Source: Eledone cirrhosa (Eukaryota). Taken from it: 64,000 nt of DNA. Below are positions 6,232 to 49,770 of this stretch, one piece after another (the first letter of the stretch is position 1; each line of letters begins with the position of its first letter). The position numbers and the translations under genes were made by a program. Location: contig OZ024740.1 in the NCBI GenBank assembly GCA_964016885.1, positions 341,558,001-341,622,000 of the forward strand, read 5' to 3'. Below the pieces are notes generated by a model. That model did no database searches, was not told the origin of the DNA, and saw nothing but the letters and a program-made list of their open reading frames with translations.

Positions 6232-6422
6232 TAAAACGAGGGAAGTGTGGTAAAGAACCAGGTGGACCATAACACATCAGAGTACTTGATACTTTGGGTA
6301 GTAGAGTGGGTAATAGGAAAAGGTTCAGGACCAAGACGGCAGAGCTCAAGCCGTTTCTGGAGTCCAGAAATAGGCGGCAAAACGGCTTGAGCTCTGCCAT
6401 CGGGGTCGTGAACCTTTTCCTA
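6232..6422 (-). mobile_element. TA-embedded foldback element with half-hammerhead (family H), copy 1
   Basis: Hairpin 6314-6422 plus tail shared with 7515, 24852 and 31103 copies. Confidence 0.75.
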
Positions 6423-6531
6423 TATATATATATATATATACATATATATATATATACAAGGATCGGAATTAAGAGTATTCCGCAGTTCACAGTAATAATA
6501 ATAATATTAACTCAAAGAAGAATAGAGAATT

Positions 6532-6946
6532 TTCTTCTGAGCTCGGATACAAATATATTACACAAATAGAAGTGTGTTACGCAGTGAAACGTGTGTAAAG
6601 GATTATTACAAGTGATTCTTACCGTTACTGAATAGAAAACAATATCTATAGGTTTAGCAATTAAATAGAAAAAAACCTAAGTTAGAATCAAATCACTGAA
6701 GTAGAGTTTTAAATTACTAACCTTATAACTATAATAGTTATAAGGTTTAATTTACTAACCTTATAACTATAATAGTTATAAGGTTAGTAATTTAAAACTC
6801 TACTTCAGTGATTTGATTCTAACTTAGGTTTTTTTGTATTTAATTGCTAAACCTGTAGATATTGTTTTCTATTCAGTAACGGTAAAAATCACTTTACACA
6901 CATTTCACTGTGTAAACACACTTCTATTTGTGTAATATATTTGTAT
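6532..6946 (+). repeat. ~400-bp foldback with twin central hairpins and a decayed HHR in the left arm
   Basis: 6547-6720 is complementary to 6783-6946; centre has two aaccttataactat-a-atagttataaggtt hairpins; ttctt-CTGA..GAAAcgtgtgTA-aagga at 6532-6602. Confidence 0.85.
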
Positions 6947-7075
6947 ATATATATACATATATATATATATATATACATATATATATATGTACATATATAT
7001 ATATATATATATATATATATATATATATATATATATATATATATATATATATATATATATTATAAATATATTTTC

Positions 7076-7408
7076 ATCATTCATCATCATTTTATTTTAC
7101 GTCCGCTTTTTCCCTGCTTGCAAGGGTGGGACGGGAACTGATCCTGGCTTGATTTCTACAGCTGGATGCCCTTCCTAACACCAACCTCATTTACAGTGAG
7201 TGCTGGGTGCTTTTTTTTTTGCCGTGGCACCTCCACGACCACTTTGCAGTGGAATGATGGGGACCGCAGTCCCTATCATCTCATTTCTACAGCTGAGTAA
7301 ACTGGAGCAATGTGAAATAAAGTGTCTTGCTCAAGGAAACAACACATCACCCAGTCTGAGATTTGAACTCACAACCTTTCGATTGCCTCCATATATATAT
7401 GTGCCTCC
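7076..7408 (-). mobile_element. tRNA/CORE-like SINE family A
   Basis: Matches family A; head partly deleted. Confidence 0.85.
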
Positions 7409-7514
7409 ATATATATATACATATATATATATATATATATATATACATATATATATATATATATATATATATACATATATATATACATATATATCTATAC
7501 ATATATATATACAT

Positions 7515-46069: not shown

Positions 46070-48694
46070 ATCATCATCATCATCATCATCATCAGGTTTA
46101 GCGTCCGTGTTCCACGCTTGCATGGGTTTGGACGGGGGTTTTCCCACTTGAGGCAAGAGTGGTTGTCTTGCTCGCATAGGACTGTCTGGCGGGTTTTCTA
46201 CAGTTGGATGCCCTTCCTAACACCAACCACATTTACAGTGTGGGGCTGGGAGGTTTTTACCGTGTTGCCTACACGGCCACATTACAGCGTGGACTGTCTG
46301 GCGGGTTTTCTACAGCTGGATGCCCTTCCTAACACCAACCACATTTACAGTGTGGGGCTGGGAGGTTTTTACCGTGTTGCCTACACGGCCAGATTTACAG
46401 CGTGGACTGTGTGTTTTTTGTCGTGACACCTACACGATCTCATTTGTTTCGGCCTGGATGTTGTGGGACCAACATAACTTTACATTGAAAGGGGCGGTGT
46501 GGGTGGGGTGGAGGTGGTGGGACGGGGGTGTGTTTTGATAGAGGTGCCTACTGACTGTAGTAGGTTTTTACTTTGTATTTAGGTAAGGCGGGTCTTCTCT
46601 ATTACTGAGTACCGCCAAAGGTCTCGGTCCAGTGACATTGTCTTGGAGAGGTGTAAGCGTGTGAGGTCGGAATTTATCAGCTCGTCCCATGTTTTTCTGG
46701 GTCTGCCTACTCCGTGGCTACCGTCTATCTTTATTGCCCTGCACTTTGTTATACAGCTGTCGTCTTTCATGCGCATCACGTGACCGTACCAACGTAGCCT
46801 TCTCTCGAGTAAACAACATCTGATCCCTCTTATTTCTAATTTTTTCCTTAGTTCGTTTATGCTTTGCCGTTCACGTATATTACTATTGCACATCCAGCGG
46901 AGCATGCAAGCTTCGTTCCTCTCTAGTCTGCGTATATCCTCTGCACACAATGCCCAGGTCTCACCGCCATGCAGCATTGCTGTTCGTATGCAGGCATCGT
47001 ATAACCTGCCTTTCATTTTTAGGGAGAACCCTCTAGCGGCTAATAGTGGTATAAGCTCTCTGAACTTTTTCCATCCAGTTCTGACTCTAGCTACTGTACT
47101 TTCAGAGCACCCTCCCCCACTGCTGATTTTGTCACCCAGATAACGGAAGCTGTCCACTATTTCTATAGAACCCTCTGCGCAGTTGAAGGAGCTAGTATTT
47201 TGTGGGCACTTGCTGCTACTTATTGCACCAGAGCACCGGCCACATGTAAAATCTATGTTCTTAGTTAGCTTACCTGTGATCCCACTACATCTTTTATGCA
47301 CCCATACTTTGCATTTGGGATATAAAATGGAGTTTCTACCTACGCCTTTCCTACACACTGAGCATGGCCATTTCCCCGATGGGACCGCCGCCTTATTTTC
47401 TTTCCTACAAACTAGAACTTTAGTCTTAGCCAGGTTAATTTTAAGGCCTTTTGATTCTAGGCCGTGCTTCCACGTTTGGAATTTCTTCTCTAGTTCGGTC
47501 ATTGATTCAGCTATGAGCGTTAGATCATCTGCGTATAGGAGTTCCCATGGGCAGCCGGTCTTGAACTCCTCTGTTATAGCCTGAAGGGCAATAATAAATA
47601 GTAGGGGGCTAAGTACAGAGCCCTGATGGACACCAACTTTTACGCTAAACTCTTCACTATATTCGTTGTTAATTCTAACCTTACTGACTGTTTCTTTATA
47701 CATGGCTTGTATAGCTCTCACAAGCCATTCGTCAACACCTAGTTTTCTAAGAGACCACCAGATAATGGAACGGGGGACTCTGTCGAAGGCTTTCTCCAAG
47801 TCGACAAAAGCTAAGTATAGGGGTTTACTTTTAGCTAGGTACTTCTCCTGTAGTTGTCGTACAATGAAAAGAGCGTCTGTGGTACTTTTGCCTGACACAA
47901 ACCCGAACTGCATTTCATCTAGATCAATTCTCTCTCTGATTAGTTGCGCTATTACTTTTTCCGTGACCTTCATGACCTGGTCGATTAATTTAATGCCTCT
48001 ATAGTTACTCCTATCTAGGGCATCTCCTTTTCCCTTATAGCAGTTAACGATGATGCTGCTACGCCATTCCTTCGGAACAACCCCATTCTGTACAACTTGG
48101 TTAACTATCCGGGTGACCATGGTGTGTCCCACCGAACCAGATGCCTTCAGCATCTCAGCAACTATTTCCGAAGGCCCAGCCGCCTTACCCGTCTTCATAT
48201 CTTTGATTGCCTTACTTATTATACTACCTTTAACTAACACTGCTGGTCCCTCTATTGGATCGATCTGGGGGAGACTGTCTTTCTCCCATTTGTTCTCCTC
48301 ATTTAGAAGCCTTTCGTAGTGACACTTCCAAGCTACCTTCTTATCAGCGTCGGTGATGGCAAGTATGCCATCATCGTTAAGTACACACTTCTCCCCGACA
48401 ATATCACGGTTTTCCTTGACACATTGCCTGGCAATCCTGAACACCTCACGTTTTTGGTCCTCACGTTGTAGAACATGCTTGAACTTTCTTTCCTCTGCTT
48501 CCCTTCTTGCGAAGTACACTTGTCTCCTAGCTTCCCTCCTGGCCACTTGATAGTCTTCTCTACTTCCCCCATCCCGCCATACTTTCCAAGCCTGCTTTTT
48601 GGCCTTAATTGACTCCTCCACCTTACTGTTCCACCACCATGTTACTCTCCTCCTACCTACAGGCCTGCTCCAGCCACAGACTTCGTCTGCCGCC
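46070..48694 (-). mobile_element. RTE LINE (PHD family), longest copy, 5' truncated
   Basis: Open frame from AADEVCG..TWWWN through RT to the stop; 3'UTR with duplicated module; tail. Confidence 0.95.
46579..48621 (-). CDS. RTE ORF2 reverse transcriptase (APE missing by truncation)
   Basis: GKAAGP, NYRGIKL, DLEKAFD, QGSVLSP, YADD; one PHD cysteine changed to Tyr (SILYPKC). Confidence 0.92.
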   Translation of the reverse strand: MEESIKAKKQAWKVWRDGGSREDYQVARREARRQVYFARREAEERKFKHVLQREDQKREVFRIARQCVKENRDIVGEKCVLNDDGILAITDADKKVAWKCHYERLLNEENKWEKDSLPQIDPIEGPAVLVKGSIISKAIKDMKTGKAAGPSEIVAEMLKASGSVGHTMVTRIVNQVVQNGVVPKEWRSSIIVNCYKGKGDALDRSNYRGIKLIDQVMKVTEKVIAQLIRERIDLDEMQFGFVSGKSTTDALFIVRQLQEKYLAKSKPLYLAFVDLEKAFDRVPRSIIWWSLRKLGVDEWLVRAIQAMYKETVSKVRINNEYSEEFSVKVGVHQGSVLSPLLFIIALQAITEEFKTGCPWELLYADDLTLIAESMTELEKKFQTWKHGLESKGLKINLAKTKVLVCRKENKAAVPSGKWPCSVCRKGVGRNSILYPKCKVWVHKRCSGITGKLTKNIDFTCGRCSGAISSSKCPQNTSSFNCAEGSIEIVDSFRYLGDKISSGGGCSESTVARVRTGWKKFRELIPLLAARGFSLKMKGRLYDACIRTAMLHGGETWALCAEDIRRLERNEACMLRWMCNSNIRERQSINELRKKLEIRGIRCCLLERRLRWYGHVMRMKDDSCITKCRAIKIDGSHGVGRPRKTWDELINSDLTRLHLSKTMSLDRDLWRYSVIEKTRLT

Positions 48695-48974
48695 TATATA
48701 TAGTAATAAAAAATGCAAGGACCGAAATCCAAAGAGGACTCGCATGTATGTGTATGTATGTATATATTTGAATGTGCACATGCAAACGCTTGTGCACATA
48801 CATGTACATGTGTATATATGTATATGTGTGTGTATCATTTTTATACACTATATCTTCGTTTATGCATGCATCCACACTGATCAGTACATAGTTATGTACG
48901 AGCCTAAATCCCAAAACATTGCTATTAATGTTCTCATTATCATCATTACTTTTATTATTATTAATATCTTAGAG

Positions 48975-49142
48975 GGTGGTGGATTGGCAGTATCGGTAGA
49001 GGGTCGGACGCCATGCTTTGACGCATAGAGTTACGGCCCTTGCCATTCTGAGTTCAAATCCCGCCGAGGTTAACTTTGCCTTTCATCATTATGGGGTCGA
49101 TAAAATAGGGTACCAGTAATGCCAAAAATTAGAAACAATTAT
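48975..49142 (+). mobile_element. tRNA-SINE family B
   Basis: Head and core match 38518-38706. Confidence 0.85.
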
Positions 49143-49521
49143 TATTAATACCTTCAGTATTTTTAATTTTAATCATATTACTTTTATTAATATCATTTTC
49201 TATATGTGGTAGCTGGAAATCATTTGGCTATTCTAAAAAAAATATTAGTCTTCTGATTTTCTCATAGCAAAAATAGGTTTTTTCCATAACAAGAATTTGT
49301 TCTTCTTGCTCCACATAATGATGTAATTTTCCTTGCATACATTTCGCCCATCTCAAGAGAACGTCTTCACACGCTACTGTCATATCTTCATGTTTTCTAA
49401 AGGCAATATTTGATCATAACTTGTTTGAAATCTACAGATTAATTTTTCTGTTTCAAAAGATCTTGCTTAGGGTGAAAGCAGAAATTTATTGCTTAAACTT
49501 TTAATCTGTACTAATATATAT

Positions 49522-49770
49522 ATAGGAAAATGTTCAAGACACTGACGGCAGATCTCAAGCCGTTTCCATGGGCCAGAATCCATGACTCGCTTGTTAGTTA
49601 TATTTCTTAACATGCTTATTTTATTATTATTTTATTTCTTAATATGCTTAGCAGGTTTCTTAATTTATATTTTTATTTCTTAATATACCTCACAGGCTTT
49701 TAAATTTATTTTTTCTAAATTAATGGATCTATAAATAATCAAGTGAGTCGTGAATTCTGGCCCACCCTGT
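49522..49770. mobile_element. Family H arm fused to a second foldback
   Basis: taggaaaatgttc..gacggcagatctcaagccgtttc followed by inverted repeat tgggccagaat..gactcgcttg / caagtgagtc..attctggccca. Confidence 0.55.

What the first reader, a model, noticed from the sequence alone, without database searches (positions are those of the whole stretch)
6232..49770. Family H: foldback elements whose turning point lies in the putative hammerhead stem II
Seen: copies at 6232, 7515, 24852, 31103 and a partial one at 49522 share a tail and a long hairpin. Arms differ between copies (ggaaaaggttc / ggagaaagtatg / ggaaccagtaag / gaaaatgttt) but are complementary within each copy, so the palindrome is regenerated per insertion or sublineage. 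The arm reads gccgtc-GAAA-cggc-ttgagctct-gccg-TC-ggggt, i.e. the 3' half of an HHR (GAAA, ACGGC/GCCGT stem III, GUC site). Where CUGANGA should be there is instead the inverted copy. Inference: the cDNA snaps back at the self-complementary stem II and primes synthesis of an inverted arm, so the ribozyme structure dictates how the insertion ends.
Basis: partly seen in the sequence, partly recalled or inferred. Interest (0 to 1): 0.7.

Follow-up and report, generated by a model that had tools for sequence, protein, structure and literature searches.

The report
Back-to-back Penelope stubs marking RNA starts
These hairpins are back-to-back stubs of a very common Penelope-like jumping gene, and in most copies both halves stop at the same short spot inside its hammerhead (self-cutting RNA) motif, likely because the element's RNA begins there rather than because the new copy folds back on itself.

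Summary
The hairpins are real. They are short head-to-head insertions of a Hydra-clade Penelope-like retroelement (3.5-kb unit, RT plus GIY-YIG; at least 36,611 copies) in (TA)n: a tail-bearing end joined to an inverted tail-less end. That layout is published, and this scan noted it earlier on other DNA of this genome. Long copies carry the missing hammerhead half, mostly as UUGANAA (U3-A8 variant), not CUGANGA. The turning point is sharply clustered: 56 of 99 copies stop 53-63 nt upstream of the tail, in loop II, and 2 of 99 stop in the next 56 nt. Snap-back is not supported as the main route: either arm is the longer one equally often (25:25) and overlaps are mostly 0-1 nt. Both arms, and rare template-jump units, end at the same positions, often with an extra C on the cDNA. 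Best reading (inferred, about 0.65): both cut target ends prime on one RNA and run off its 5' end, probably a capped start inside the ribozyme, and are then joined. A second end class lies exactly at the predicted ribozyme cut (6 of 19 jump junctions), hinting at cleavage in vivo. No RNA data were available.

The parts
6235..6421 (-). Complete short insertion: tail 6235-6314, tail-side arm of about 43 nt, 3-nt insert, tail-less inverted arm of about 59 nt ending at 6421, in (TA)n
7515..7675 (-). Complete short insertion with a shortened centre (arms about 38 and 48 nt, 6-nt overlap), tail 7515-7594, in (TA)n
24855..24907 (-). Tail-less inverted arm (53 nt) of the youngest copy; starts at the inner priming site, which shares TAT with the (TA)n target
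24907..24961 (+). Tail-side arm (55 nt): 3' part of hammerhead loop II, 3' strand of stem II, GAAA (24921-24924), stem III, predicted cut between 24943 and 24944, 3' strand of stem I
24962..25043 (+). Tail (82 nt): the start of the 5' UTR in full-length units; its end shares TAT with the (TA)n target
31104..31297 (-). Complete short insertion of an older subfamily (arms 60 and 61 nt, no overlap), small deletion at the tail junction
49524..49566 (-). Tail-less arm only (about 43 nt), cut off by an unrelated inverted-repeat element; no tail nearby

Best explanation
These hairpins are short head-to-head insertions of a Hydra-clade Penelope-like retroelement in (TA)n, likely made when both cut ends of the target prime reverse transcription on one RNA and both copies run off that RNA's 5' end, which is predicted to be a capped transcription start inside loop II of the hammerhead. 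Shown: element identity; one tail-bearing and one tail-less end per insertion, 80 nt apart on the element and each sharing TAT with the target; a sharp pile-up of both inner ends 53-63 nt upstream of the tail; near-blunt junctions; extra C on cDNA ends. Inferred: the two-strand cut and double priming (by analogy with the in vitro Poseidon element), run-off at an RNA end, the cap, and end-to-end joining by template jump or host end-joining. Because the start lies inside the ribozyme, the upstream copy of the hammerhead would be transcribed only as its 3' half and could not cut itself, whereas the downstream copy is whole; RNAs cut there would start at the cleavage site, matching a second, rarer class of ends. 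Long copies would come from multi-unit or circular templates, or by seamless transfer through the shared repeat.
For: Identity: long copies run into a 710-aa RT plus GIY-YIG frame with RWR, DKT, CxCx5C and CxxC..E..N..CxH (clade features in PMC8557442 section 11); unit 3,523 bp with the tail continuing into the 5' UTR. Intact long insertions have one end at +82 and one at +2, either arm being the long one. Pile-up: 56 of 99 tail-side ends at 53-63, 2 of 99 at 64-119, 8 of 99 longer, 33 of 99 shorter. Symmetry and blunt joins. Arms are not independent: among 13 long insertions with an identifiable partner only 1 has a partner ending at 53-63, which points to the template and not to a random stall. 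Of 42 long loci that cross an upstream hammerhead, 0 stop at 53-63 and 39 run past -100, so the stop is not built into every hammerhead. At 19 direct template-jump junctions the copied unit starts at -58 to -63 in 11 and at -18 (plus or minus 1), the predicted cut, in 6; successive units in a locus start in the same class in 11 of 13 (p about 5e-6 for the -18 class against a flat null). After an arm ending at A-59 the next letter is a C that neither arm explains in 28 rows and a T in 3 (by-eye tallies of 50 of 2,325 and 50 of 928 listed junctions); an extra G precedes 5-6 of the 11 jump units. In the youngest subfamilies TATTTAAA lies 29 nt before A-59. PAc cuts and extends both strands and starts at two sites that bound the tail (PMC11167929).
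Against: No RNA evidence of a start site or of cleavage was obtained. No full-length copy starting at -59 was seen (0 of 42), so extra steps are needed to explain long copies. In L210 a copy built from tandem units that begin at -117 still ends at -60, and L168 mixes the two end classes. Extra C also follows ends at T-62 in about 4 of 50 junctions, and MMLV RT prefers to add C to cDNA ends generally (PMC3877366, abstract in listing), so the C may mark run-off without a cap. Many ends fall on C or T (55-57, 60-62), which needs several starts or trimming. The TATA-like word is missing from some subfamilies and the Drosophila Penelope promoter is TATA-less (PMC2377424). Among ordinary asymmetric hairpins the -18 class does not stand out: 14 of about 95 against 14 at -23 (by eye), 2 of 29 in another subfamily. 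Covariation support for the hammerhead is weak (93% paired, 102 of 500 shuffles as high; the alignment was selected by a pattern that fixes many columns).
Confidence: 0.65

Rival explanations
1. Double priming as above, but both copies stall at a roadblock in loop II (RNA fold or the element's own protein bound there) on an RNA that continues upstream.
For: The stop lies at the foot of a small apical hairpin of stem II; ends are spread over 11 nt and many are pyrimidines; L210 ends at -60 although its units start at -117; the PAc hammerhead is protein-assisted, so protein binds near it (PMC11167929).
Against: 0 of 42 long loci stop at an upstream hammerhead; arms of one insertion behave alike; extra C/G at ends; the apical hairpin is AU-rich and the whole motif folds no better than shuffles (z -0.21).
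Confidence: 0.16
2. One reading: the first cDNA folds back at self-complementary stem II and primes the inverted arm (a form of the self-priming proposed for Penelope elements).
For: Turning points do cluster at stem II; about 4 of 50 listed junctions in the TATTT subfamilies keep the native apical loop with 3-5 nt of overlap; self-priming was proposed from junction palindromes in PMC3846280.
Against: The inverted arm is longer than the tail-side arm in 25 of 57, so it holds sequence that the supposed template lacks; 7 of 57 have equal arms, several with no loop; overlap of 2 nt or more in only 3 of 57; the same stops occur at direct junctions and in copies with no inverted arm; fold-back gives no reason for the arm to stop exactly at the inner TAT site.
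Confidence: 0.07
3. The insertions were first longer or perfect palindromes and their centres were later trimmed in the chromosome by cruciform cutting and end-joining.
For: Symmetric ends, 0-1 nt overlaps and small inserts are what end-joining leaves; some copies show central or intra-arm deletions (copy at 7515).
Against: It does not explain the sharp upper edge at -63, the same positions at direct jump junctions, the C/G bias, or long hairpins that survive with spacers of 0-3 nt (L136).
Confidence: 0.08
4. An ordinary MITE or other DNA transposon with terminal inverted repeats.
For: Short, numerous, hairpin-shaped, in TA.
Against: One end has an 80-nt tail outside the repeat; arms range from about 20 to over 2,600 nt; each centre is different; the sequence is the 3' end of an RT-encoding element.
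Confidence: 0.01

Closest known systems
Hydra clade of C-terminal EN+ Penelope-like elements (Craig et al. 2021, PMC8557442; sections 11 and 15, passages, supplement rows for Hydra families)
   Same: RT followed by GIY-YIG, DKT, CxCx5C linker, CxxC and CxH around E and N, (TA)n target, sense-strand hammerhead in the pLTR, inverted 5'-truncated copy and one-sided tail.
   Different: Unit is 3.5 kb (1.2-kb 3' UTR) against generally under 3 kb; tail about 80 nt against 30-40; hammerhead core mostly U3-A8 with a long stem II; hammerhead differs entirely from the listed Hydra-1_Obim row; most copies are 200-bp stubs with a fixed turning point, which the parts read do not describe.
Poseidon element PAc in vitro (Frangieh et al. 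2024, PMC11167929; main text parts 1-2 read)
   Same: Both target strands cut and extended; two internal RT start sites bound the tail; AT-rich target.
   Different: That paper does not address inverted arms or where cDNAs end, found priming without homology (here each end shares TAT with the target), and found no RNA reads ending at the hammerhead cut; here 6 of 19 jump junctions start at it.
Adineta vaga Penelope inverted pLTRs and the self-priming proposal (Arkhipova et al. 2013, PMC3846280; passages)
   Same: Head-to-head inverted pLTR with palindromic junctions and optional tail.
   Different: Junction statistics here favour two separately primed copies over self-priming.
PLE hammerheads with U3-A8 core (Cervera and de la Pena 2014, PMC4209133; parts 1-2 read)
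   Same: Type I topology, U3-A8 covariation, long helix II, G10.1-C11.1, pairs of motifs on opposite strands.
   Different: Helix III here is 5 bp with a 9-nt loop, so it would likely fold as a monomer; about a quarter of listed copies have a C3-A8 mismatch.
L1 twin priming (Ostertag and Kazazian 2001; recalled, only the reference line seen) and retroviral minus-strand strong-stop DNA (recalled)
   Same: Two target ends priming on one RNA; internal priming near the RNA 5' end giving a short run-off copy.
   Different: L1 twin priming inverts without duplicating; here both primers sit 80 nt apart and copy the same stretch, and the run-off copies are themselves integrated.

Membership tests
EN+ Penelope-like elements | Single ORF with PLE-type RT and GIY-YIG endonuclease | tested here: met
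   710-aa frame with RT motifs and C-terminal GIY-YIG motifs read by eye; 402 relatives at E<=1e-20, almost all unnamed; no Pfam match
EN+ Penelope-like elements | pLTRs from partial tandems, inverted 5'-truncated copy, one-sided tail | tested here: met
   tail is about 80 nt, longer than the 30-40 nt described
Hydra clade | DKT, RWK-like motif, CxCx5C linker, CxxC and CxH around E and N, no CxxC inside GIY-YIG | tested here: met
   RWR in place of RWK; one copy examined in full, a second in part
Hydra clade | Insertion in (TA)n | tested here: met
Hydra clade | Placement in the clade by RT phylogeny | not tested
   no named reference sequences were held; no tree built
Type I hammerhead ribozyme | Core boxes and three helices in order | tested here: met
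   YUGANAA, GAAA, UC and helices I-III in long copies; U3-A8 variant; no Rfam hammerhead match in the window; short copies hold only the 3' half
Type I hammerhead ribozyme | Covariation of helices | tested here: inconclusive
   93% paired, 3 pairs with two-sided change, near shuffle levels; 18 closely related rows
Type I hammerhead ribozyme | Self-cleavage at the GUC site | not testable with these tools
   indirect only: 6 of 19 jump junctions start at the site; no clear peak
MITE | Fixed terminal inverted repeats at both ends, fixed centre, no RT link | tested here: not met
Non-LTR retrozyme | Tandem repeats each with a complete hammerhead | tested here: not met
   window copies are inverted and hold half a ribozyme; one derived locus elsewhere (L210) does fit

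The most novel reading that the evidence does not exclude
This Penelope-like element starts its RNA inside its own hammerhead, so the 5' copy of the ribozyme is born split and only the 3' copy can cut. Both target ends prime near the RNA's 5' end and make strong-stop-like cDNAs that usually integrate head to head, and occasionally transfer to the ribozyme-cut 3' end to give long copies. Tens of thousands of stubs then map, in DNA alone, the element's capped start and its ribozyme cut, giving the first genomic evidence that a Penelope hammerhead cleaves in vivo and a general account of inverted pLTRs.
Probability: 0.35. Interest if true: 0.75.

Novelty: new member of a known kind. Interest (0 to 1): 0.52.

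Why it matters
How Penelope-like elements form inverted pLTRs and tails, and what their hammerheads do, are stated as open in PMC8557442 (section 15) and PMC11167929. This family supplies tens of thousands of independent junctions that argue against self-priming, favour two-ended priming on one RNA, and give exact positions to test: RNA 5' ends 59-63 nt upstream of the tail and at the predicted ribozyme cut 18 nt upstream. It also warns that such stubs will be mis-annotated as MITEs or miRNA-like hairpins (one search gave only weak miRNA matches).

Tried and rejected
DNA search of the own genome with the tail gave nothing because common words are skipped; patterns were used instead. Rfam found no hammerhead in the window. 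Pfam found no family in the ORF. No RNA holder was listed for the element, so expression, start site and cleavage are untested. Laying contigs of four coded runs (one study) showed much higher summed depth over the stub region than over the 5' UTR and ends at both TA junctions, but no usable fold-point table. A peak at the ribozyme cut among asymmetric hairpins was looked for and not clearly found. Jumps onto a ribozyme-cut 3' end: 35 matches, 4-6 ending at the cut, only 1 of 30 examined with a whole hammerhead upstream ending exactly there: anecdotal. Different microhomology at long versus short junctions: 5 of 21 against 3 of 57 with 2 nt or more (p 0.03), noisy, not relied on. Arms from two different subfamilies: 2 candidates (L060, L062), too few to argue for two RNAs. 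A limit on RT processivity was rejected because arms of 60 and 140 nt and jump units of 200-950 nt end at the same place. A splice acceptor at -58 was considered and rejected because ends include bases upstream of it. Hairpins just beyond both priming sites fold but no better than shuffles. Literature searches listed no paper tying PLE turning points to a transcription start, to strong-stop DNA or to twin priming; the library lacks most subscription papers, and Pyatkov 2004, Evgen'ev and Arkhipova 2005 and Arkhipova 2017 were not read. Supplements of PMC11167929 and of the bioRxiv retrozyme paper were not seen; that of PMC8557442 was held cut and only searched.
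Full report
Observation. Four complete copies and one fragment are at the stated places. Each complete copy reads (TA)n, inverted arm, junction, direct arm, tail of about 80 nt, (TA)n. The fragment at 49524-49566 is a tail-less arm cut off by an unrelated inverted-repeat element. The window is G000:C1:341558001-341622000 in a 3.0-Gb animal genome; its repeats look octopus-like to me (recalled, not tested). 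A 22-nt word at the arm/tail junction has 36,611 exact matches and its reversed control none. Below, positions are counted upstream from the base where the tail begins; the predicted ribozyme cut is at -18 and GAAA at -41.

What it is. Of the first 30 loci, several ran upstream into a 1.2-kb untranslated stretch and the end of a GIY-YIG frame. Longer stretches gave a 710-aa RT plus endonuclease frame with RWR, DKT, CxCx5C and CxxC..E..N..CxH, the features given for the Hydra clade in PMC8557442 section 11; no tree was built. A tandem locus gives a unit of 3,523 bp in which the tail continues into the 5' UTR. Long insertions have the same layout as the stubs: two 5'-truncated copies head to head, one ending at +82 and one at +2, either being the longer, arms up to over 2,600 nt. 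Both ends share TAT with the target. This layout is published (PMC8557442 passages; PMC3846280 passages; PMC2377424 passages), and earlier notes of this scan reached the same identification and a two-primer reading on other DNA of this genome. The family differs from the listed Hydra-1_Obim in length and hammerhead.

The ribozyme. A pattern for the 5' half has 5,764 matches; 98 of the 100 listed read YUGANAA (about three quarters U3-A8, a known PLE variant in PMC4209133) and 2 read UUGAAGA. Helices I, II and III can form; covariation is inconclusive. The native 5' strand of stem II lies at about -95 to -86, so stubs hold only the 3' half, and what looks like stem II at their centre is the inverted duplicate.

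Where the hairpins turn. One search found 112 tail matches in loci L001-L090 and the window; 5 were dropped (edge or partial tail), 107 analysed, 99 with the exact word. With 11 over-extended alignments corrected by hand, the tail-side arm ends at 53-63 in 56 of 99, at 64-119 in 2, beyond 120 in 8, and below 53 in 33. A strict pattern counts 13,232 such short hairpins. So the clustering is real and has a sharp upstream edge, in the 3' side of loop II.

Test of snap-back. In the 57 of 107 copies with both arms past GAAA, the tail-side arm is longer in 25, equal in 7, shorter in 25; overlap is 0-1 nt in 41, 2 nt or more in 3, and 13 have small inserts including A or T runs. Snap-back needs a longer template arm, a loop and pairing at the fold; none of the 57 reaches the native 5' strand of stem II. 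About 4 of 50 listed junctions in the TATTT subfamilies keep the apical loop and are compatible with fold-back, so a minor route is possible.

What sets the stop. (a) Arms of one insertion behave alike: of 13 long insertions with an identifiable partner among the first 30 5'-half matches, 1 has a partner ending at 53-63. (b) 301 matches show the tail running into the 5' UTR; 70 loci from the first 100 listed were examined. Of 42 long loci (four tandem units counted once), 0 stop at 53-63 of the upstream repeat, 1 stops at -19, 2 in the tail, and 39 pass -100. (c) 19 loci have a direct template-jump junction; the downstream unit starts at -58 to -63 in 11, at -18 plus or minus 1 in 6, elsewhere in 2; five short loci with other downstream sequence were not counted. 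Successive units fall in the same class in 11 of 13; L168 and L210 do not. A second set of 35 jump junctions shows repeated stops at the same window. (d) After an arm ending at A-59, the next letter is C in 21 and 24 of 100 listed rows in two subfamily groups, of which 15 and 13 cannot come from either arm, against 1 and 2 for T (by eye). An extra G precedes 5-6 of the 11 jump units. RTs add C opposite a cap (recalled), but MMLV RT also prefers C in general (PMC3877366, abstract in listing; the text search showed only reference lines), and C also follows some T-62 ends. (e) TATTTAAA lies 29 nt before A-59 in the youngest subfamilies but not in all.

How it most likely works. The enzyme cuts both strands of (TA)n and extends both, starting at two sites that bound the tail, as shown in vitro for PAc (PMC11167929). 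Priming mostly happens in the upstream repeat of an RNA that starts about 59-63 nt upstream, so both cDNAs run off, gain a C and are joined end to end. The start splits the upstream hammerhead; the downstream one is whole and, when it cuts, leaves RNAs starting at -18. Long copies need multi-unit or circular templates or seamless transfer through the shared -59 to -19 repeat; the data do not separate these. Identity, end positions and junction statistics are shown; double priming, run-off, cap and cleavage are inferred. Against: no RNA data, no full-length copy starting at -59, L210, and no clear -18 peak among asymmetric hairpins (14 of about 95 against 14 at -23; 2 of 29; 49 mirror cases not tallied).

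Novelty. The object is a new family of a known clade in a known layout. What I did not find in the searches or in the scan's notes (one note mentions a shared fold point in another family) is the link of the turning point to an RNA 5' end inside the hammerhead, or genomic ends at the ribozyme cut. PMC13282606 (passages) lists Penelope-like families in an octopus without such detail; the bioRxiv retrozyme paper 10.64898/2026.07.22.740005 (first part) bears on L210. Interest 0.52: ordinary as an element, useful as a large natural test of an open mechanism.

Noticed in passing
window 37371-37500 (+): Minimal hammerhead with a canonical CUGACGA core, followed about 80 nt later by a tail-like stretch resembling this family's tail; another tail-like piece at 36889-36966. 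Likely a related Penelope-like family.
   Followed up: partly
window 37576 (+), 62916 (+), 30661 (-), 37246 (-): Further hammerhead-like motifs of other families (CUGANGA ... GAAA); 37576 and 62916 are two copies of one family.
   Followed up: partly
window 49570-49769: About 200-bp element with 35-nt inverted ends (86% complementary), AT-rich middle and TA at its right end; looks like a Tc1/mariner-type MITE (label recalled). It truncates the 49524 fragment.
   Followed up: partly
L210 (G000:C2:356029300-356032300): At least six tandem 299-bp units spanning -117 to +203 with a small gap, each with a whole hammerhead: a retrozyme-like array derived from this element.
   Followed up: partly
L143/L144, L142, L146, L166, L169, L202: Short direct units from about -60 to +170...+900, repeated up to twice: traces of RT jumping back onto short RNAs.
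   Followed up: yes
L060 1694-1804 and L062 1687-1804: Two hairpins whose arms look like different subfamilies in the outer 18 nt; two templates or later conversion.
   Followed up: partly
window 6610-6894: Unrelated near-perfect palindrome, 138-nt arms, 97% complementary, 9-nt spacer.
   Followed up: no
window 35469-36366, 42082-43728, 46579-48693: Three RTE-like LINE copies (label recalled), two in inverted orientation 2.9 kb apart; a CR1-like LINE frame at 12890-16060.
   Followed up: no
L019, L067 (about 1567), L097, L137: Insertions in which one arm is little more than the tail, or both arms carry tails (L049, L090), showing variant use of the two priming sites.
   Followed up: partly
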